NCBI GenBank assembly: GCA_016126025.1
Contig: JAEFDA010000104.1
Span: forward strand, 1 to 52,333
Origin: Nitrososphaerota archaeon
GTDB taxonomy: Archaea; Thermoproteota; Nitrososphaeria; Nitrososphaerales; Nitrosopumilaceae
Direction of reading: 5' to 3'
DNA length: 52,333 nt
Shown in pieces: positions 2,878 through 13,401 of the stretch. The stretch's first letter is position 1; each line of letters begins with the position of its first letter. The notes beneath the pieces were generated by a model. That model worked only from the letters and a program-made list of their open reading frames with translations, searched no databases and was not told the DNA's origin. A program made the translations under genes and the position numbers.

Positions 2878-3933
2878 ATGGACGCCAGGCGATTATCCCT
2901 GCTGGAGGGGGCCCGGGAGCTGGGCTGCGACTCGCTGGTGGCCTGTACCCCAGAGAACATGTTCTACATGACCGGGTTCTGGGGGGAGGGGATGGCGGTG
3001 CTGGACGGGGACCACGCCACAATAGTGGCGCCCGGTCTGGAGGCGGGCCGCGCCGAGGCCGACTCGCGGGACTGCACCATAGTGTCGGCCGGGAGGGGCG
3101 CCGAGATGGTTCCTGCAGTAGCTAGGCTTCTGGAGGGAGCCAAACCCTGCACCGACTGCGCCGACTACTCCACCATGCTGCTGCTGCAGAAACACATGCC
3201 GCATGTGCGGCACGCGCCCGGCCCCTTCCAAGACTCCAGGATGGTAAAGGATGCAGAGGAGATCCGCACGCTCCAGGAGGCCTCGCGTATCATAGACGGA
3301 ATGTTCGAGCTCTGCGCCGGGACCATAACCCCCGGCCAGACCGAGTCACAGCTGCAGGCCGTACTGATGTCGCACGCCGCCGAGCGGGAGATGTTCGACA
3401 CCGGGTACCCCTCCACCCTCAACCCGCTGATAGTGGCGGGGGGCCCCAACGGGGCGCTCCCCCACGCCCAGGTTACGGGGCGCCGGTTCGGGCGGGGGGA
3501 CCTGGTGGTGGTGGACATCACCCTGCGGTATCGGGGGTATGTCTCGGATGCCACCCGCACGTTCGGGGTGGGGCATGTGTCCCCGGAGCGCGTCAAAATA
3601 TACGAAATAGTGAGGGAGGCGCAGGAGCTGGGCCTGCGGGCCGCCATCCACGGGGTATCCTGCGGCGATGTGGACCGGGCCTGCCGCGACCACATAGAGT
3701 CGCGGGGGTACGGCAGATACTTTATACACTCGACGGGCCACGGCGTGGGCTTGGAGGTGCACGAGCAGCCCGCCATATCAAGGTCCGTTGATACCATACT
3801 GCGCAGGGACATGGCCGTGACCGTCGAGCCGGGCATATACGTACCCGGGGAGGCCGGCGTCCGCATAGAGGACTCCATAATCGTGGGGCAGGGCAGCATG
3901 CACCGGTACACTAGGGATCTGGTCGTGGTATAG
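2878..3933 (+). CDS. Xaa-Pro dipeptidase / aminopeptidase P family (M24B)
   Basis: Internal ATG at 2878 (MDARRLSLLEGARELG...) of track ORF 2800..3933. M24 metal-ligand motifs: 'VVVDITLRYRGYVSDATRT', 'HSTGHGVGLEVHE', 'VEPGIY', 'RIED'. An ATAAATT element lies about 27 nt upstream of 2878. Confidence 0.9.
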   Translation: MDARRLSLLEGARELGCDSLVACTPENMFYMTGFWGEGMAVLDGDHATIVAPGLEAGRAEADSRDCTIVSAGRGAEMVPAVARLLEGAKPCTDCADYSTMLLLQKHMPHVRHAPGPFQDSRMVKDAEEIRTLQEASRIIDGMFELCAGTITPGQTESQLQAVLMSHAAEREMFDTGYPSTLNPLIVAGGPNGALPHAQVTGRRFGRGDLVVVDITLRYRGYVSDATRTFGVGHVSPERVKIYEIVREAQELGLRAAIHGVSCGDVDRACRDHIESRGYGRYFIHSTGHGVGLEVHEQPAISRSVDTILRRDMAVTVEPGIYVPGEAGVRIEDSIIVGQGSMHRYTRDLVVV

Positions 3934-4541
3934 GCACGTCCACCGTCCGGAGCGGTGGATTCCGCACAAAAATATTCCAAGGCAGAACGCGGTACGGGGC
4001 CGCTTTCGGTACGGGGGGCGCCGGCCCGGACGGAATGGTACTGGCATCATGCTTATGGCATGGGGAGAAGCACGACCCGTCCGTATCCAGAACTTTGGGG
4101 ATCAGCATGCCGTCTCGCATCACTATGCCGTCTTCGCCAAATTCGTATATAGGAACATCTTTTGATATTCCCTCCGGCATCTGCACGTAGAACATTACTA
4201 ATCATCCAATGTCATGTCGGTCTCCGTTCCGTGTGCGTGTCAGTCCTGAATAATCTTGACGGCATACACGCATGCCGCATCATAAAGAGACGTACTTTAC
4301 TACCTCTTCACTATATCGCTGTAGACTGTGATCTTATACAGAGTGGTGCCAGCTAGATGTGAGACCATAACAGATACGGCGTGCGCCACAATGTCGGTGT
4401 CGGGTTTTGAACCATAAAATGTAAGTCGTATGCATCGAAGATGAAGAGTTTTCTTGTTAAAGTCAAGCATTGTGTCAACCGACAACGATGGTCTATCCCT
4501 GTATCTGCTGCTCGAAGTGGTCATGGCAGGTCGTTCATTAG

Positions 4542-4808
4542 GTATCTGGGCAACTGCGGAGCCGCTTCGGCAAGTCCGCCGTCATCGTTGACAACACAGC
4601 GTACCACGACTCCAAGCGCGTGCGGCGGTATCTGGAACGAAACGGAGGCCTTGTAAAACTGCTATTCCTGCAGCCGTACTCGCCGTTCCTGAACCCGGCC
4701 GAGTGGCTGTGGCGCAAGGGCAAGGCGAGGATATGCAGGACGTTCAGGCAGCTGGCCAAGAGCTATAGCGCCGACCAAAAGTTCATGCAGAGTATGTCGC
4801 TGTTTTAA
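4542..4808 (+). pseudogene. IS630/Tc1-mariner-type DDE transposase, C-terminal fragment only
   Basis: The frame is open from 4542: '...AVIVDNTAYHDSKRVRRYLERNGGLVKLLFLQPYSPFLNPAEWLWRKGK'. This is the DN..H ... PYSP.LNP.E catalytic end of IS630 transposases. The N-terminal two thirds are missing. Confidence 0.8.
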
Positions 4809-4984
4809 CTACAATTGTTGAGCACTTATGCATCAACTACAGACTAGTGTGCTCAACTTGTTCCTGATCTTGGCACACACGATATTATGGCGGACGGTCT
4901 TGAAGAGAAACTCAACTGAAATAGTTCAGACTTTGCACGACTTTTTAGTCGACGCTATAGAGTGGAAATAATGGTCTATTCGTG

Positions 4985-5038
4985 GAGTGGAAATGTATAT
5001 CGGAGTGGAAATGTATATCGGAGTGGAAATGTGGGTCA
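4985..5038. repeat. Tandem 18-bp repeat, 3 copies (GAGTGGAAATGTATATCG x2 plus a diverged third)
   Basis: Copies read directly at 4985-5002, 5003-5020 and 5021-5038. An extra GAGTGGAAAT core lies at 4960-4969. Confidence 0.9.
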
Positions 5039-5102
5039 GACAGTGGCTAGGCGCTATCTGTTACAGGCGCTGCCAACGTTACAGCCCACTTTTGTCGCTA
5101 AC

Positions 5103-5113
5103 TATATATATAT
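5103..5113 (+). promoter_or_regulatory. TATA box candidate for the low-GC island operon
   Basis: TATATATATAT is centred about 27 nt upstream of the TTG at 5134. Confidence 0.4.
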
Positions 5114-5133
5114 GACATCATGTATCATGATTA

Positions 5134-6063
5134 TTGAAAGCGCTAACTGTGGGTTTTGAAAGTTATGACAGGCAGGAATATGCCAAATCTGCCACCCTGT
5201 ATGTATTGCAACATTTCCAACCCAGCCTAGGGAAGAAAACAACCCCGAAGCATTATGTGAAAAAAACCATAATAGACCTGATGCCGGACGAACAACCAGA
5301 CTTGGACAAGATAATATCCAGTGAAATAGGGTTTGTCGTAGACAAGGTTCGTTTTAAGGCAGACTGGTTTACCACTGACGACTACCTGAAGCTCTGGAAG
5401 AAATATTTCACGGAATTCTTGAATGAAAATACGATGATCCAGGAGTCACTCCAGGCGCTCCAATCAAACTCGGACGACACCAGCGAACAGTTCGGCTTGA
5501 TGATGGACTCGTTGAGAGAACTGCGGCGGATGCTCAGGGATTCATATGACCAATGGCACAGAAAGATAATGGCAGAATTCTTGGAATCAGACCTGCCATT
5601 AGAACTGTACAACCTGTACAACATCTCATACATCGGAAAGGCATCAGCGATAAAGTCATTCGTAGCAGATCTGACCAGGTTGCAAACAAAGCTGCACCTT
5701 GTCAGGTCCAATGAGAGAAAGATAATGTCAGAATTAAGAGAGTTTGAGAAATGCCACAGGAGACTTTCAGAGACGCTGGCGAAGGCATCCCGCTCGGAGT
5801 CCACGCTGAGGTTCTTTCTGAAGTCGGTCAATGCAAAGGAGCTGGAGGACCTGTTTAGGACAAAACCACTAGTGTTGAACAGCAGCGCAGAAGAGAAGAG
5901 ATTCAAGAAATACCTTGGCGAATTCACGCAGAGCCTCTTTGAACTGACAAACCAACTAGACAAAATACACCTCAATGAAGATATTATGCTGAACTCTTCA
6001 GACTCAGTGTCGTTTGGTGATTTTGATAAAGAATTGCGCCAGGCAGTCTTCAATCATGCCTAG
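5134..6063 (+). CDS. Hypothetical all-helical / coiled-coil protein (low-GC island gene 1)
   Basis: 309-aa ORF in visibly AT-richer DNA, rich in K/E/L, with no motif I recognise. The start is uncertain: TTG 5134, GTG 5149 or ATG 5281. Its stop overlaps the next gene's ATG by 8 nt. Confidence 0.65.
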   Translation: MKALTVGFESYDRQEYAKSATLYVLQHFQPSLGKKTTPKHYVKKTIIDLMPDEQPDLDKIISSEIGFVVDKVRFKADWFTTDDYLKLWKKYFTEFLNENTMIQESLQALQSNSDDTSEQFGLMMDSLRELRRMLRDSYDQWHRKIMAEFLESDLPLELYNLYNISYIGKASAIKSFVADLTRLQTKLHLVRSNERKIMSELREFEKCHRRLSETLAKASRSESTLRFFLKSVNAKELEDLFRTKPLVLNSSAEEKRFKKYLGEFTQSLFELTNQLDKIHLNEDIMLNSSDSVSFGDFDKELRQAVFNHA

Positions 6064-6838
6064 CAACACAAAGATCGCAGTCTGCGTGGATTCGTCGATT
6101 TTTCTGGCCGAAGTGTTTGGTAACGAGACTCAGTCGACACGGGCAGGTGCCATTGACAGGTACCAAAAAACCTTCCAATTCAAAAAATGTATGTCTGCTA
6201 CCGTGAAAATCGAGGTGGGCCGCAGGATGTGCGAAGTCACGGAGCTGATCGAACAGACTTCGAAGGAATTTACAAAGTATTTCCGCTCGTCCAAAGGAAC
6301 GGGATCGACAATCGACCTGTCGGATCTGACATTAATTCAATCGTTTTTTTCAGGGTATAAGGTCAAATACAAATCCAAAACGTCTGAACTAGAAGTCATT
6401 AACAAAACGGAGTCGGTGCTTGCACGGTATCTGGTGGAAAACTGCGATGGGAAAAAGGTGCTAACGACGGTGGACTTTGTCTTGGAGTCAATGGCAGAGT
6501 TTAACAAAAGGCTCTCCGGTCTAAGATACGAATACTACTCTAGGCTGAGCGGATATGAGGTATTTCCAGCTAAGGTGAATTCTGCAACGTGCGCAAAACT
6601 GCAAAACGAGAAGGCGCTGCAAAAGACGGCAGCGAAAAAGCCACAGGACATCCAAATTTTATGCGAAGTAGAGGCCTACAAGCATGACTCTAAGCAGACA
6701 TGCCTGCTGGCAACGGTCGACGAACACGATTTTCTGAGCAATTCAAAGACGATTGAATCGCTTATCGGGATAAAATGTGTGGATCCGATCTACATTCCGT
6801 ATGAGTTCGCTCGTATTCCAAATGTTGATGGTGCCTGA
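6056..6838 (+). CDS. PIN-like nuclease domain protein with a large internal helical insert (low-GC island gene 2)
   Basis: The ATG at 6056 lies inside ...AATCATGCCTAG. The N-terminus 'KIAVCVDSSIFLAEVFG' looks like PIN strand 1 with the first Asp. The C-terminus 'DIQILCEVEAYKHDSKQTCLLATVDEHDFL..IKCVDP' matches the D..I....A......l.T.D..F PIN end. About 170 aa separate the two halves. Confidence 0.6.
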   Translation: MPSNTKIAVCVDSSIFLAEVFGNETQSTRAGAIDRYQKTFQFKKCMSATVKIEVGRRMCEVTELIEQTSKEFTKYFRSSKGTGSTIDLSDLTLIQSFFSGYKVKYKSKTSELEVINKTESVLARYLVENCDGKKVLTTVDFVLESMAEFNKRLSGLRYEYYSRLSGYEVFPAKVNSATCAKLQNEKALQKTAAKKPQDIQILCEVEAYKHDSKQTCLLATVDEHDFLSNSKTIESLIGIKCVDPIYIPYEFARIPNVDGA

Positions 6839-7478
6839 TCGAGTTGTGCACGTCCTTTCGTCGGCATTTTAACTACTGACAATCCAAAAGGCGCGCTTGA
6901 GCTAGGCCGAGATGGGCATGTGAGCCAGTTACATTATGAAGCTTGCCCTCAAACCTACCAGAACCATGGCTGGTGTGGCCAAGAACCCGCCGTTGAAGCC
7001 GTAATGGAGTGGGTTGTGCACGAACTGGAACGACTGGATATAGAACGCCAGGTGCCACTTGCTGACGTCGCGGTGTTTTTCAGCCATCATTTGGACAGAC
7101 CCACCCGGCACTCGCAGTTATTTGCCTGTGTATTGGACAGCGAGTGTTTGCACGCCGACCATTCAAGATCCTATGTTGCAAGAAACAATTTGCCGGCGGA
7201 TCCCCCTTAACCTTCACGGCGGGCGGTTCTTGTGAAATCAAGATTTTGCGGGGTGCTTGATGAATGATACGAACGCTCGCGTCTTGGTCCGGCAAGCTTA
7301 TGCGGTCTGGAGGATATTGGCGTCCATCTCTGGTCGCTGACCGTGCATAATACTATGGCCACGTCCACGGCCGTCCGGTACCCAGCCCTTGCCTGCCCCG
7401 GGCCATACTCCCTAGGTACCGCGCATACCACCGGACATGCGGGGCTCCTGCATAACCATAGGGGCCGCGCCGGCCGGC

Positions 7479-8766: not shown

Positions 8767-9998
8767 CGGGGGCGGGCCGTCCACTTCTCCTCTATCTTCT
8801 GCTTGATGAACCGGACCACGTCCTCCTTCTGCTTGCGGCCGGAGCTGGAGTGGCCCTCGCGGTCCACTATGATGACGCGGTTGTTCTCCGGGTCGCTCTG
8901 GTACCCGTCGCCCACGTCGTTGGCGATCACCATGTCCGCGTCGGCCTCCTTCATCTTCTGGCGGGCCGACTCTATCAGGTCCTCGTCGGAGATGTTCACC
9001 TCGGCCTTGAAGCCCACCAGCAGGACATCGCCGGCCACCACCCGGATGCGGTCTATTATCTTGGGGGTTTTGGACATTTTGATATCCAAACCGGACAGCT
9101 CGCTGTCTATCTTGGAGCGGTTGTACTCGGAGGGGGTGTAGTCGGCCGCCGCCGCTGCCATCACTATGATATCCTGGTCGTTGGAGGCCTCCCGGAGGGT
9201 CGCCTCCATCATCTCGGCGGTGCTGGTGACGCTTATGAGCCGGACGCCCGACGGCGGCCTTTCCCGCCCGGGCCCGTACACCATGGTGACGTCGCACCCG
9301 TCCAGCACCAGCTCAGAGGCCAGCAGCACGCCGGTCAGCCCCGAGCTCATGTTTGTGACGGCCCGCACCGGGTCTATGCGCTCCAGGGTGGGCCCGGCCA
9401 CCACCAGCACGCGGCGGCCCCGCAGCGGCGCCGTCCTAGATATGGTCTGTATCACGGTGTCCAGTACCTCTTCTGGCTCGGCCGCCTTGGCCTTGCCCTC
9501 CGTTATGGTGGGGGGCGCAAAGCGCACCGACCGTTCCAAAAACTCGATGTTGCGGCGCACCGCCGGGTTCACGTACAGCGAGTCGTGCATCGCCGGGCAG
9601 ACCAGTATGGGCATGCCCGAGCCCAATGCGGTGGTGAGTATGGTGGAGACCGCGGTGTCATCTATGCCGCAGGCCATCTTGGATATGGTGTTGGCCGTGG
9701 CCGGGTACACCAGTATGAGATCCGTGTTGTGGCGGTCGGCCAGCGATATGTGCTCCATGTCGCCGCCCAGCGACACAATGGCGGGATGTCCCGTCGCCCA
9801 GGTCATGTACTGGGGCGTGATCAGCTCAGCGGCGGACGGCGTCAGCACGCACCGAACCGTTCCCCCATGCCGCATCAGCAGCCGGGCCAGCTCCACGGCC
9901 CGGTAGGCGGCCACGCTGCCCGTGACACACAGTACTATCTTCTTGCCGAGCAGCTCCTTGCCGTCGGTTCCGGTTATGTCCAGGGAGGGGTGATCCAT
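8763..9998 (-). CDS. coaBC: Bifunctional phosphopantothenoylcysteine decarboxylase / phosphopantothenate-cysteine ligase
   Basis: 411 aa. N-terminal flavoprotein 'KKIVLCVTGSVAAYRAVELARLLMRHG'; C-terminal DFP/CoaB domain 'RAVTNMSSG..G'. Confidence 0.92.
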   Translation of the reverse strand: MDHPSLDITGTDGKELLGKKIVLCVTGSVAAYRAVELARLLMRHGGTVRCVLTPSAAELITPQYMTWATGHPAIVSLGGDMEHISLADRHNTDLILVYPATANTISKMACGIDDTAVSTILTTALGSGMPILVCPAMHDSLYVNPAVRRNIEFLERSVRFAPPTITEGKAKAAEPEEVLDTVIQTISRTAPLRGRRVLVVAGPTLERIDPVRAVTNMSSGLTGVLLASELVLDGCDVTMVYGPGRERPPSGVRLISVTSTAEMMEATLREASNDQDIIVMAAAAADYTPSEYNRSKIDSELSGLDIKMSKTPKIIDRIRVVAGDVLLVGFKAEVNISDEDLIESARQKMKEADADMVIANDVGDGYQSDPENNRVIIVDREGHSSSGRKQKEDVVRFIKQKIEEKWTARPR

Positions 9999-12441: not shown

Positions 12442-13401
12442 ATGGCCCGGTTCCTGCGGCGGCTCCAGCGGATAGGCTCCAGCGTTTTGGTATCGCTGCC
12501 CAAGGAGTGGGTCATACAGAACGGCCTGGAGAAGGGCAGCCAGGTGGAGATAGAGACCTCCAGGGGGGGCCTCTCGGTGGCGGCGACGGGGCGGCAGACC
12601 CGGGAGCTCTCCATAGCGTACCCGCTGCCCCCCGACGAGAACATAACGGCGGACTTGACGGGCGCCTACCTGCTGGGGTACGACGCGATACAGGTCACCG
12701 GGCCTGCGATCCCCGCCGGGGACCGCGAGCTGATACGGGACTCGACCCGGCGTTTGGCGGGGATGGAGATCGTCGAGGAGGACCGCTCGCACGTCACGCT
12801 GCAGTTCCTGCTGGATCCGACCACCCTGGACCCCCGCCGCATCCTGCTCCGGATGAACTCCATAGCCTTGGGGATGTTCGGCGAGGTGCTCAAGGGCATG
12901 GAGACCGGCGAGCTCTCGGCGCTGGGGACTCTCCGGAACCGCGACGCGGAGGTGAACCGGCAGTACTTTCTGCTGGTGAGGCTGATACGGTCCGCCCTGG
13001 TGGACGGGCGCATATCGCACGCGTTCGACCTGGAGGGGGTCGACGTGCTGGACTACAGGGTGGCGGCCAACCTGCTGGAGAACGCCGGGGACTCCATAGT
13101 GGCGCTGGGCGCCGCCATGCGGGACTCGGGGCTGCCGGCCGGCCGGCTGCGGGGGGCCCGGGGGGCGGCCCGGGAGCTGGAGGGGGCCGCAGGCCGGGCT
13201 GTCCGGGCCCTGGTGGAGCGCGACCGGAGACTGGCCATACAGGCCATATCGCTCCACGCTTCATACCAGGAGGGGCTGGCGGCCCTGCGCGCCGACGCCG
13301 CCGGGGACATGGCCCTCATAGACGTGGTGTACGGCTTGGAGCGGATAGGGCGGTTCTGGGCGGACGTGGCGGATCTGGTGCGGCCCATCTACTACGATTG
13401 A
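12442..13401 (+). CDS. AbrB/SpoVT-domain + PhoU-domain phosphate-regulon-type regulator
   Basis: 319 aa. The N-terminus 'LQRIGSSVLVSLPKEWVIQNGLEKGSQVEI' is AbrB-like. It is followed by two PhoU-like helical repeats ('RDAEVNRQYFLLVRLI'). Confidence 0.8.
   Translation: MARFLRRLQRIGSSVLVSLPKEWVIQNGLEKGSQVEIETSRGGLSVAATGRQTRELSIAYPLPPDENITADLTGAYLLGYDAIQVTGPAIPAGDRELIRDSTRRLAGMEIVEEDRSHVTLQFLLDPTTLDPRRILLRMNSIALGMFGEVLKGMETGELSALGTLRNRDAEVNRQYFLLVRLIRSALVDGRISHAFDLEGVDVLDYRVAANLLENAGDSIVALGAAMRDSGLPAGRLRGARGAARELEGAAGRAVRALVERDRRLAIQAISLHASYQEGLAALRADAAGDMALIDVVYGLERIGRFWADVADLVRPIYYD

What the first reader, a model, noticed from the sequence alone, without database searches (positions are those of the whole stretch)
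5134..6838. Low-GC two-gene island: a 309-aa helical protein translationally coupled to a split PIN-like nuclease (best candidate for an undescribed toxin/defence module)
A roughly 2-kb stretch lies between an IS630 remnant (4542-4808) and the GC-rich core genes and is visibly far more AT-rich than the backbone. It carries two same-strand ORFs whose stop and start overlap by 8 nt (ATG 6056 within AATCATGCCTAG). ORF2 opens with a PIN strand-1 pattern (KIAVCVDSSIFLAEVFG) and closes with the PIN C-terminal pattern (DIQILCEVEAYKHDSKQTCLLATVDEHDFL ... IKCVDP). The two halves are separated by about 170 aa of helical insert, much more than in VapC-type PINs. ORF1 is a 309-aa K/E/L-rich, apparently coiled-coil protein with no motif I can place. 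It is several times larger than a classical VapB/AbrB antitoxin. The pair is preceded by an 18-bp tandem repeat and a TATATATATAT box. A large helical partner, an expanded PIN and a foreign base composition next to IS debris together look like a horizontally acquired conflict system that does not match the standard VapBC layout.
Basis: partly seen in the sequence, partly recalled or inferred. Interest (0 to 1): 0.7.

Follow-up and report, generated by a model that had tools for sequence, protein, structure and literature searches.

The report
Archaeal PIN nuclease with helical partner
A low-GC insert in an ammonia-oxidising archaeon carries a conserved two-gene operon, a large all-helical protein coupled to an expanded PIN-type nuclease, that looks like an undescribed archaeal toxin/defence-type module whose nuclease gene is repeatedly broken in related genomes.

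Summary
Window 5134-6838 carries two real, same-strand genes (309 aa and 260 aa) overlapping by 8 nt. They lie in the most AT-rich stretch of the window (GC about 0.45 against about 0.61), beside an IS630-like remnant.

ORF2 is a divergent PIN-like nuclease. The AlphaFold model is confident (pLDDT 89), and its best PDB matches are VapC toxins. The acidic quartet D12/E53/D198/D222 is conserved down to 14-20% identity, and distant relatives give in-register but sub-threshold PIN_12/PIN/PIN_3 hits. It has a long helical insert after strand 2.

ORF1 is a confidently modelled helical protein with no match by sequence or fold and no conserved catalytic-looking residues.

The pair is always adjacent, from 85% down to about 20% identity, in Nitrososphaerota and at least one Odinarchaeota MAG. 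Its position differs even between close relatives. It is often next to IS elements, integrases, restriction-modification, TIR, HEPN or Cas genes, or a tRNA.

In 7 of 9 species-representative genomes the PIN gene is broken, while ORF1 stays intact in 8 of 9.

The best reading is a VapBC-like but non-canonical toxin/effector-plus-neutraliser module. Toxicity and any defence role are inferred, not shown. I file it as a new variant of a known kind.

The parts
4620..4808 (+). IS630/Tc1-mariner-type transposase C-terminal remnant. This is context, not part of the conserved module.
   Evidence: There is a weak Pfam DDE_3 hit (E = 4.5e-4, profile positions 98-135 of 146). The '...QPYSPFLNPAEWLW' signature resembles the intact IS630-like element inserted in L014.
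4984..5037 (.). 18-bp tandem repeat (GGAGTGGAAATGTATATC, about 3 copies). It is specific to this locus.
   Evidence: Detected by TRF and the repeat finder. It lies outside the segment shared with other loci.
5074..5133 (+). Conserved upstream region with a TATA-like box (5103-5113), about 21-31 nt before the ORF1 start. Presumed archaeal promoter.
   Evidence: Nucleotide homology to L111, L004 and L012 begins at 5074-5104. A gATATATA / gATATTATA box 25-40 nt upstream is conserved in 12 loci.
5134..6063 (+). ORF1: a 309-aa alpha-helical partner protein of an unclassified family, with a conserved TTG start. Proposed neutraliser/regulator of the nuclease.
   Evidence: - 65 homologous clusters.
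- No hit in Pfam, NCBIfam, PADLOC or PHROGs.
- AF2 model pLDDT 85.9, pTM 0.84, helical with a beta-hairpin at 31-48.
- No fold match in PDB or BFVD.
- Distant partners are homologous: hhalign probability 99.4, 96.8 and 92.0.
- TTG start in 10 of 13 loci.
- dN/dS 0.2-0.4.
6056..6063 (+). 8-nt stop/start overlap (ATGCCTAG), implying translational coupling.
   Evidence: Read directly from the sequence. The same ATGnnTAG/TAA overlap is conserved in all Nitrosopumilaceae-type loci. A 4-nt overlap or a short gap occurs in distant members.
6056..6838 (+). ORF2: a 260-aa PIN-like (VapC-group) nuclease with a long helical insert.
   Evidence: - AF2 model pLDDT 89, pTM 0.83, with strands at 7-11, 43-47, 168-170, 215-219 and 240-242.
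- The top Foldseek PDB hits are VapC toxins (3zvk_B probability 0.98; 6ifc_A TM 0.69 normalised to the target).
- Invariant or near-invariant D12, E53, D198 and D222.
- Sub-threshold, in-register PIN_12/PIN/PIN_3 hits in distant members.
6089..6091 (+). Codon for Asp12, the first PIN acidic residue, at the end of strand 1.
   Evidence: Near-invariant across the family. Its position relative to strand 7-11 comes from the model.
6212..6214 (+). Codon for Glu53, the second PIN acidic residue, in the helix after strand 2.
   Evidence: Invariant in the 33-sequence alignment that reaches down to 14% identity.
6296..6547 (+). Helical insert (residues about 81-164) between strand 2/helix 3 and strand 3. 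It carries near-invariant D90 and E119.
   Evidence: Helices 88-104, 109-131 and 138-164 in the AF2 model. Conservation.
6647..6649 (+). Codon for Asp198, the third PIN acidic residue.
   Evidence: Invariant. It lies at the N-terminus of helix 196-212.
6719..6721 (+). Codon for Asp222, the fourth PIN acidic residue, in the LLATVDxxDF motif after strand 4.
   Evidence: Invariant. It follows strand 215-219.
6839..6969 (+). Downstream tail shared with the closest relative. It contains an oligo-T stretch (6867-6871) that may be an archaeal terminator.
   Evidence: blastn homology to L111 extends to 6969. The sequence was read. The terminator role is inferred.

Best explanation
This is a mobile, accessory two-gene operon of archaea, found mainly in ammonia-oxidising Nitrososphaerota and also in an Odinarchaeota MAG. 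It works as a toxin/effector-plus-neutraliser pair.

ORF2 is a metal-dependent PIN-family nuclease, most likely an RNase as in VapC. Its catalytic quartet is D12/E53/D198/D222, and an added helical domain probably shapes substrate or partner binding.

ORF1 is a non-enzymatic helical protein made from the same transcript. It is translationally coupled to ORF2 through the 8-nt overlap. It binds the nuclease and keeps it inactive until a trigger (loss of the element, stress or virus infection) frees it.

Shown here: gene reality, PIN fold and active-site conservation, strict pairing, variable genomic position, foreign base composition, and asymmetric decay of the nuclease gene.

Inferred: complex formation, toxicity, neutralisation, RNA as substrate, and any role in defence.
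For: 1. PIN fold and catalytic residues.
- The model is confident.
- VapC toxins are the top structural matches.
- The four acidic residues are conserved across a family reaching 14-20% identity.
- Distant members give in-register weak PIN_12/PIN/PIN_3 hits.

2. Operon logic resembles type II toxin-antitoxin modules.
- The partner lies upstream.
- The conserved overlap is 8 nt, or 4 nt in distant members.
- There is a conserved TATA-like box.

3. The pairing is ancient.
- Every homologue examined has an upstream partner of 303-367 aa.
- The distant partners are homologous to ORF1.

4. The module behaves as accessory and mobile.
- The whole ORF2 family comprises only 52 clusters at 50% identity among 1.84 billion representative proteins.
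- Pair GC is below flank GC in 11 of 13 loci. It is marginally above in L009 and L018. The difference is largest in high-GC hosts (0.455 against 0.617 here).
- The closest relative (85% aa identity) carries the pair in a different neighbourhood, with homology limited to 5074-6969.
- Neighbours include IS630/IS66/IS4/IS110 elements, an integrase, ThsB-TIR x2, MmeI/Eco57I restriction-modification, Mrr, HEPN, HEPN_AbiV, an SLFN-type helicase, type I-G Cas genes, and a tRNA.

5. Asymmetric decay.
- In nine species-representative genomes the ORF2 homologue is frameshifted, stopped, split by an IS, truncated or missing its start in 7.
- ORF1 is a single intact reading frame in 8.
- With at least 7 independent disruptions all falling in the shorter gene, the chance under equal per-base rates is about 0.46^7 = 0.004 (my calculation).
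- This is what is expected if the nuclease is costly and the partner is not.

6. ORF1 does not look like an enzyme.
- It has no conserved catalytic-type residues across the family.
- Its C-terminal tail is strongly conserved but modelled with low confidence (residues about 286-303, pLDDT 55-62).
- That combination is typical of a segment that folds on binding a partner (inference).
Against: - No experiment shows toxicity, neutralisation or nuclease activity.
- ORF1 is four times the size of classical VapB and has no recognisable DNA-binding domain.
- The window protein itself gives no PIN-clan HMM hit. The Foldseek E-values are weak (0.05 at best) because about half the protein lies outside the PIN core.
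- Deep-branching family members sit among housekeeping genes with no obvious defence neighbours.
- ORF1 stays under purifying selection (dN/dS 0.28-0.42) even where ORF2 is dead. A pure antitoxin should then be dispensable.
- No PADLOC model matches either gene.
- No complex prediction could be run.
Confidence: 0.58

Rival explanations
1. The pair is a dedicated antiviral (abortive-infection type) defence system rather than a simple addiction module. ORF1 would be a sensor or scaffold that detects a viral cue and then releases or activates the PIN nuclease. This overlaps with the best explanation in mechanism, but assigns ORF1 a sensing role and the system a defence function.
For: - In the Nitrosopumilaceae-type loci the neighbours are often defence genes: ThsB-TIR, MmeI/Eco57I restriction-modification, Mrr, HEPN, HEPN_AbiV, AAA_15/21 ATPase and type I-G Cas.
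- ORF1 is far larger than an antitoxin needs to be and has a confident, elaborate fold.
- ORF1 is retained under selection where ORF2 is dead.
- A PIN_12-domain protein ('Cosus', Brc24) has been shown to protect against phage, and mutations T12A, D14A and D96A in residues predicted to matter for its PIN12 domain sharply reduced that protection (bioRxiv 10.1101/2024.07.02.601719, read).
Against: - There is no match to any PADLOC model.
- Several loci, including this window, have no defence genes nearby.
- Most of the 100 neighbour ORFs scanned are housekeeping.
- A useful defence gene would not be expected to be broken in 7 of 9 species, although defence genes do turn over quickly.
- No virus of these archaea is available for testing.
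Confidence: 0.25
2. The pair is a non-toxic, lineage-specific RNA-processing or nucleic-acid-maintenance complex. The PIN nuclease would work with an adaptor subunit, as Nob1, Fcf1 or HARP-type PIN enzymes do. It would be inherited mostly vertically and simply lost in some symbionts.
For: - Deep-branching members lie among IMPDH, adenylosuccinate synthase, TFIIB, SUI1 and tRNA synthetase genes.
- Both genes are under purifying selection.
- The helical insert with conserved D90/E119 suggests specific substrate recognition.
- HARP (protein-only RNase P) appears among the Foldseek hits, though weakly (probability 0.30).
Against: - The distribution is very sparse: 52 clusters in 1.84 billion representatives, and no named cultured isolate among the hits.
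- The position varies even between relatives at 85% identity.
- The base composition is foreign.
- IS elements and integrases lie alongside.
- The nuclease has been pseudogenised repeatedly and independently while the 'adaptor' is kept.
Confidence: 0.12
3. ORF2 is an inactive PIN-like fold, or not a nuclease at all, and the pair has some unrelated function. The PIN resemblance would be structural only.
For: The window protein has no significant sequence hit to PIN families. The Foldseek E-values are all at or above 0.05.
Against: All four canonical acidic positions are invariant or near-invariant over a family reaching 14% identity, and they sit exactly at the expected ends of the secondary-structure elements. 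The LLATVDxxDF motif is the classic PIN C-terminal motif. Weak PIN-clan hits in several distant members align in register.
Confidence: 0.05

Closest known systems
VapBC type II toxin-antitoxin modules (PIN toxin VapC plus antitoxin VapB)
   Same: - The PIN fold has VapC toxins as its best structural matches.
- The four conserved acidic residues are present.
- The partner gene is upstream, with an overlapping stop and start.
- The distribution is accessory and mobile.
- The toxin gene is preferentially inactivated.
   Different: - The nuclease is 260 aa, against about 130 aa for VapC. It has a helical insert of about 85 aa after strand 2 and two extra helices after strand 3.
- D12 to D198 spans 186 residues, against about 90 between D7 and D98 in Shigella VapC (residue numbers taken from the PDB entry titles).
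- The partner is a 309-aa helical protein with no AbrB, RHH, HTH or PHD domain and no fold match.
- No PIN/VapC HMM reaches threshold.
DUF4935 / PIN_12 (Pfam PF16289), classified as a VapC-group PIN-like family by Matelska et al. 2017 (PMC5499597)
   Same: [quoted passage not shown] The ORF2 model shows exactly this topology. PIN_12 is also the Pfam family hit most often by distant members of the ORF2 family: 9 of 33, in register at the N-terminus.
   Different: - The hits score 15-21 bits against a 32-bit threshold, and the window protein has none.
- DUF4935 proteins are about 350 aa with an extra C-terminal alpha/beta region. They are almost all bacterial and 'usually expressed as mono-cistrons'.
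- This family is 250-260 aa, archaeal, and always paired with the helical partner.
'Cosus' (Brc24), a single-gene phage-defence integron cassette with a PIN_12 domain (bioRxiv 10.1101/2024.07.02.601719)
   Same: It is a PIN_12-type protein carried on a mobile element. Protection against phage dropped sharply when residues predicted to matter for its PIN12 domain were mutated (T12A, D14A, D96A).
   Different: It is a single bacterial gene with no partner protein. No detectable sequence relationship to ORF2 was tested or shown here. It serves only as functional precedent.
PIN-like nucleases with large inserted or appended modules (FEN-like helical arch; HARP protein-only RNase P, 8kda)
   Same: In each case a PIN core is elaborated by helical additions that shape substrate access. 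HARP appears among the Foldseek hits.
   Different: The HARP match is weak (probability 0.30, TM 0.25-0.33). The insert position and the catalytic Glu in helix 3 are VapC-type rather than FEN-type, following Matelska's description.

Membership tests
PIN domain-like superfamily (VapC-like group) | An alpha/beta/alpha fold with a five-stranded parallel sheet | tested here: met
   The AF2 model (pLDDT 89) has five short strands alternating with helices. The top Foldseek PDB hits are VapC toxins (probability 0.98-0.75, TM normalised to target 0.51-0.69), though the E-values are only 0.05-0.5.
PIN domain-like superfamily (VapC-like group) | Four conserved acidic residues: Asp after strand 1, Glu in the helix after strand 2, Asp, and Asp after strand 4 | tested here: met
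   In a 33-sequence alignment reaching 14% identity, E53, D198 and D222 are invariant and D12 is near-invariant. Their positions match the ends of the structural elements.
PIN domain-like superfamily (VapC-like group) | A significant match to a PIN-clan profile HMM | tested here: not met
   The window protein has no Pfam hit at E <= 1. Distant relatives hit PIN_12, PIN and PIN_3 only below threshold (best 20.8 bits against 32; 19.8 against 23.6), but in register. hhalign against a single PIN sequence matched only the LVTxD motif.
PIN domain-like superfamily (VapC-like group) | Metal-dependent nuclease activity | not testable with these tools
   This needs biochemistry.
VapBC type II toxin-antitoxin | A compact PIN toxin of about 130 aa | tested here: not met
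   ORF2 is 260 aa with a helical insert. All family members are about 250 aa.
VapBC type II toxin-antitoxin | A small upstream antitoxin with a DNA-binding domain (AbrB, RHH, HTH or PHD) | tested here: not met
   ORF1 is 309 aa. It has no hit to such domains in Pfam or NCBIfam and no fold match.
VapBC type II toxin-antitoxin | A bicistronic operon with the antitoxin first and overlapping or abutting reading frames | tested here: met
   The 8-nt overlap is conserved in all Nitrosopumilaceae-type loci, and a 4-nt overlap or short gap occurs in distant ones.
VapBC type II toxin-antitoxin | A toxin that arrests growth and is neutralised by the antitoxin | not testable with these tools
   The only evidence is indirect. 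The ORF2 homologue is disrupted in 7 of 9 species-representative genomes, while ORF1 is intact in 8 of 9.
DUF4935 / PIN_12 (PF16289) | An HMM match above the gathering score (32 bits) | tested here: not met
   The window protein has no match. Distant relatives score 14.8-20.8 bits.
DUF4935 / PIN_12 (PF16289) | A long helical insert after S2 and two helices after S3 | tested here: met
   The model shows helices 48-164 after strand 43-47, and helices 176-184 and 186-194 after strand 168-170. The family description is in PMC5499597.
DUF4935 / PIN_12 (PF16289) | About 350 aa with an additional C-terminal alpha/beta region; monocistronic; bacterial | tested here: not met
   The protein is 260 aa and ends right after the PIN core. 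It is always paired with ORF1. The named members are archaeal.
Catalogued anti-phage defence systems (PADLOC-DB 2.0) | A match to a model of a known or candidate defence protein | tested here: not met
   Neither protein has a family at E <= 1.

The most novel reading that the evidence does not exclude
The pair is a new, archaea-specific antiviral defence system. A novel-fold helical protein would sense infection and unleash an insert-bearing PIN nuclease (abortive infection). It would spread horizontally among ammonia-oxidising archaea, including sponge symbionts, and into Asgard archaea.
Probability: 0.25. Interest if true: 0.72.

Novelty: new variant of a known kind. Interest (0 to 1): 0.55.

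Why it matters
Ammonia-oxidising archaea are globally important, and their conflict and defence systems are almost entirely unstudied experimentally.

This module pairs a recognisable effector (a PIN nuclease) with a large partner that has no known relatives by sequence or fold. It recurs in variable, IS-rich and defence-rich regions, and it reaches Asgard archaea. It is therefore a concrete, small (1.7 kb) candidate for a new archaeal toxin/defence system that could be tested by simple expression experiments.

The repeated breakage of the nuclease gene while the partner is kept is a natural-history clue to which component is harmful.

If the module proves to be only a VapBC variant, it still adds a new antitoxin-type protein family and a new insert-bearing PIN subfamily that Pfam does not cover.

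Tried and rejected
- **Profile libraries.** Pfam, NCBIfam, PADLOC, PHROGs and PDB sequence searches of both proteins gave nothing significant.
- **hhalign of the ORF2 family against one bona fide PIN protein (L002:19355-19822).** Only the LVTxD motif aligned, at probability 3.5%. A single-sequence target is too weak for this test.
- **Foldseek of ORF1 against PDB and BFVD.** Only noise was returned (TM <= 0.4 even normalised to short targets; nearly all < 0.3).
- **Flanking direct repeats as island borders.** The apparent repeats at 3929-4026 and 7354-7475 do not align convincingly (67% identity in GC-rich DNA), so I rejected them. The 10-nt TTTTAACTAC at 4803-4812 and 6867-6876 may be chance.
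- **Empty-site search.** A metagenome scan with the neighbouring M24 peptidase returned only relatives at <= 42% identity, so the insertion borders could not be defined.
- **Genome scan with the broad alignment A3.** I reran it with A1, which finds only close relatives. The 9 genomes it returned are therefore a lower bound.
- **Viral, phage and plasmid origin.** There were no homologues in IMG/VR, INPHARED or PLSDB.
- **tRNA and Rfam scans of the region.** Both found nothing.
- **Not done.** The bacterial promoter/terminator scan was not used because the host is an archaeon.
Full report
**1. What is there**

The window comes from a high-GC Thaumarchaeota/Nitrososphaerota MAG. The source name for ORF1 is 'MAG: hypothetical protein IS632_07335 [Thaumarchaeota archaeon]'.

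The finding's coordinates are exact.
- ORF1 runs 5134-6063 on the + strand (TTG start, 309 aa).
- ORF2 starts with ATG at 6056 and ends at 6838 (260 aa).
- The two overlap by 8 nt.

GC is 0.42-0.47 across 4800-6800, against 0.60-0.73 on both sides. At 1-kb resolution, 4001-7000 is the lowest-GC stretch in the entire 52 kb.

Upstream lie three features:
- a short ORF (4620-4808) with a weak IS630-type DDE_3 hit;
- an 18-bp tandem repeat at 4984-5037;
- a TATATATATAT box at 5103-5113.

The neighbours on either side are housekeeping genes: ThiI and M24 peptidase on the left, and a methyltransferase, CoaBC and pantoate transferase on the right. In this genome the pair is therefore a small insert in a core region.

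**2. The genes are real and form a conserved pair**

ORF2 has 41 homologous clusters and ORF1 has 65 in a 5.8-billion-protein collection. None carries a Pfam domain or an informative name.

In every locus I could read, the two genes are adjacent and in the same order. These loci include four complete or near-complete chromosomes, the closest relative and nine GTDB species representatives.

The 8-nt ATGnnTAG/TAA overlap is conserved. So are a TATA-like box 25-40 nt upstream and, unusually, a TTG start for ORF1 in 10 of 13 loci.

An exhaustive profile search of 1.84 billion representative proteins found only 52 clusters. All full-length members are about 250 aa.

I looked up six distant members (ORF2 identity 16-31%). 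For one of them (P0131, L008) the contig was too short to show any neighbour. Each of the other five has an upstream gene of 303-363 aa. I compared three of those partners with ORF1, and all three are homologous to it: BLASTP E = 1e-28, and hhalign probabilities 99.4, 96.8 and 92.0.

Named members are Thaumarchaeota/Nitrososphaerota. One pair (L029) is from an Odinarchaeota MAG, and an ORF1 relative is annotated in Baldrarchaeia.

The module is therefore old, archaeal and strictly bipartite.

**3. ORF2 is a PIN-like nuclease with an insert**

No profile library or PDB sequence search recognises it. The evidence comes from structure and conservation.

- An AlphaFold model built on 26 homologues is confident (pLDDT 89, pTM 0.83). 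It shows five short strands alternating with helices, plus a long helical region between strands 2 and 3.
- Foldseek against the PDB puts VapC toxins at the top: 3zvk_B at probability 0.98, and 6ifc_A with TM 0.69 normalised to the target. The E-values are modest (>= 0.05), because only about half the query is PIN core.
- In an alignment that includes relatives at 14-25% identity, the only invariant or near-invariant polar residues in the core are D12, E53, D198 and D222.
- These four residues sit where the PIN quartet should be: after strand 1, in the helix after strand 2, at a helix N-terminus before strand 4, and after strand 4 in an LLATVDxxDF motif.
- Nine of 33 family members give weak PIN_12 hits, and others hit PIN, PIN_3, PIN_4 or PIN_5. 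The hits are below threshold but in register, with residues about 9-76 aligning to profile positions 2-65.

The topology is a long helical insert after S2 and two helices after S3. That is the feature Matelska et al. describe for DUF4935, now Pfam PIN_12 (PMC5499597). However, this family lacks DUF4935's C-terminal region, is archaeal, and is never monocistronic.

Two residues in the insert, D90 and E119, are also nearly invariant. Their role is unknown.

**4. ORF1 is a novel helical protein**

Its model is confident (pLDDT 85.9, pTM 0.84). It is mostly helices, with a beta-hairpin at residues 31-48. Nothing in the PDB or BFVD resembles it.

Across the whole family, only hydrophobic or structural positions and one Asn are conserved. 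This argues against an enzyme.

Within the Nitrosopumilaceae clade, the C-terminal segment LNSSDSxSFxDFDxxLRQ is strongly conserved but modelled with low confidence (pLDDT 55-62). I read this, as inference only, as a segment that folds on binding, possibly in the nuclease groove as VapB tails do.

**5. Accessory and mobile behaviour**

Pair GC is below flank GC in 11 of the 13 loci measured, and in every high-GC host. It is marginally above in L009 and L018.

| Locus | Pair GC | Flank GC |
|---|---|---|
| window | 0.455 | 0.617 |
| L012 | 0.472 | 0.643 |
| L020 | 0.483 | 0.651 |
| L004 | 0.433 | 0.579 |

The closest relative (Cenarchaeum sp. MAG, 84-85% aa identity) carries the pair in an unrelated neighbourhood. 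Nucleotide homology is limited to 5074-6969, which covers the promoter, the two genes and about 130 nt of tail. The 18-bp repeat is not shared.

Neighbourhoods of the Nitrosopumilaceae-type copies are rich in mobile and defence genes:
- IS66, IS630 and IS4 fragments, two ThsB-TIR genes and a type IIG restriction-modification gene;
- a Dam methylase, HicB, Mrr, a NucS-like protein, Csa3 and a PIN gene;
- an SLFN-type helicase and IS110;
- an integrase, an AAA_15/21 ATPase, MmeI-type restriction-modification, HATPase_c_3 and HEPN;
- HEPN_AbiV;
- IS4, IS66 and a type I-G Cas3.

In three low-GC genomes the pair sits about 100-150 nt from a tRNA-like sequence.

This association is not universal. 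Most of the 100 neighbour ORFs scanned are housekeeping, and the deep-branching members lie among housekeeping genes. No viral, phage or plasmid copies were found.

**6. Asymmetric decay**

This is the most informative new observation. It comes from the nine GTDB species-representative loci.

The ORF2 homologue is damaged in seven:

| Locus | State of the ORF2 homologue |
|---|---|
| L012 | frameshifted |
| L014 | split at residue 208 by a ~1.1-kb IS630-like insertion |
| L015 | C-terminally frameshifted |
| L016 | interrupted by a stop and a frameshift |
| L017 | frameshifted |
| L018 | frameshifted and truncated |
| L020 | reduced to 41 codons, with its ATG mutated to ATA |

In L019, ORF2 is reduced to a 54-residue remnant and ORF1 is absent, so that locus counts against both genes. 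Only L013 is intact.

ORF1 is a single uninterrupted frame in eight of the nine. With at least seven independent hits all in the shorter gene, the probability under equal per-base rates is about 0.004 (my calculation).

dN/dS is 0.2-0.4 for both genes. For ORF1 it stays at 0.28-0.42 between lineages that have both lost ORF2.

The simplest reading is that the nuclease is costly or dangerous and is repeatedly inactivated, while the partner is harmless or useful. This is the pattern expected of a toxin and its neutraliser. The persistence of ORF1 hints that it has value beyond neutralising its own toxin, for example protection against incoming copies, or a regulatory or sensing role.

**7. Interpretation and ranking**

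- **Toxin/effector-plus-neutraliser module, 0.58.** This fits the PIN catalytic site, the operon layout, the mobility and the decay pattern best.
- **Dedicated antiviral system, 0.25.** Here ORF1 acts as a sensor. It is a sub-hypothesis supported by neighbourhoods and by the precedent of a PIN_12 defence protein. It is weakened by the absence of defence neighbours at several loci.
- **Housekeeping RNA-processing complex, 0.12.** It is disfavoured by sparse distribution, variable position, foreign composition and pseudogenisation.
- **Catalytically dead fold look-alike, 0.05.** It is contradicted by the conserved quartet.

**8. Novelty**

I found no description of this family. It is absent from Pfam, NCBIfam, PADLOC and PHROGs. 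It is also not mentioned in the PIN classification paper or the archaeal dark-matter review that I searched.

It works like VapBC but fails two of VapBC's defining features, toxin size and antitoxin type. It also fails the sequence and architecture criteria of DUF4935/PIN_12. I therefore file it as a new variant of a known kind: a PIN-nuclease two-gene conflict module with a new insert-bearing PIN subfamily and a new partner family.

My literature search was limited to open-access text.

Noticed in passing
L002:~8830-8905, L013:~1-75, L016:~8835-8910 (upstream of the pair): A tRNA-like sequence on the opposite strand lies about 100-150 nt upstream of the pair in three low-GC Nitrosopumilus/Nitrosarchaeum genomes. 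Its anticodon-loop region reads CTGATAATCG, suggesting tRNA-Ile(GAT). This points to a tRNA-linked integration hot spot. The window has no tRNA within 12 kb.
   Followed up: partly
L014:10604-11747: An intact-looking IS630/Tc1-mariner-type element of about 1.1 kb is inserted in the ORF2 homologue at residue 208. This is the same IS family as the remnant at window 4620-4808.
   Followed up: partly
window 4803-4812 and 6867-6876: An exact 10-nt direct repeat, TTTTAACTAC (17 nt at 82% identity), brackets the module. One copy follows the IS630 remnant and the other follows the ORF2 stop. It could be an insertion scar or chance.
   Followed up: no
L029:9073-10849 (Odinarchaeota MAG); P0168 (Baldrarchaeia): The two-gene module, or at least the ORF1 family, also occurs in Asgard archaeal MAGs, next to a Roadblock/LC7 gene and TFIIB. 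The family is therefore not confined to Nitrososphaerota.
   Followed up: partly
window ~12443-13401 (+): A 57-aa MazE/AbrB-type protein overlaps the start of a 274-aa protein with a faint PhoU-like hit. The coordinates come from L021 minus 52 nt. This may be an ordinary PhoU-regulator pair or another small module.
   Followed up: no
window ~1029-1794 (-/+): A second, milder GC dip (0.49-0.53) holds four small uncharacterised ORFs (44-87 aa) between an NTP_transf_2 gene and ThiI. An NTP_transf_2 gene also lies 3 kb from the pair in L111.
   Followed up: no
window 5134; L001, L002, L004, L005, L012, L014, L016, L018 ORF1 starts: ORF1 uses a TTG start codon in 10 of 13 loci, whereas ORF2 uses ATG. 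A conserved weak start on the upstream gene of a coupled pair may set the ratio of the two proteins.
   Followed up: partly
L019:13386-18988: A type I-G (Cas3g/Cas8g/Cas7g) CRISPR-Cas effector cluster lies about 3 kb from the remnant of the ORF2 homologue in one Nitrosopumilus MAG.
   Followed up: partly
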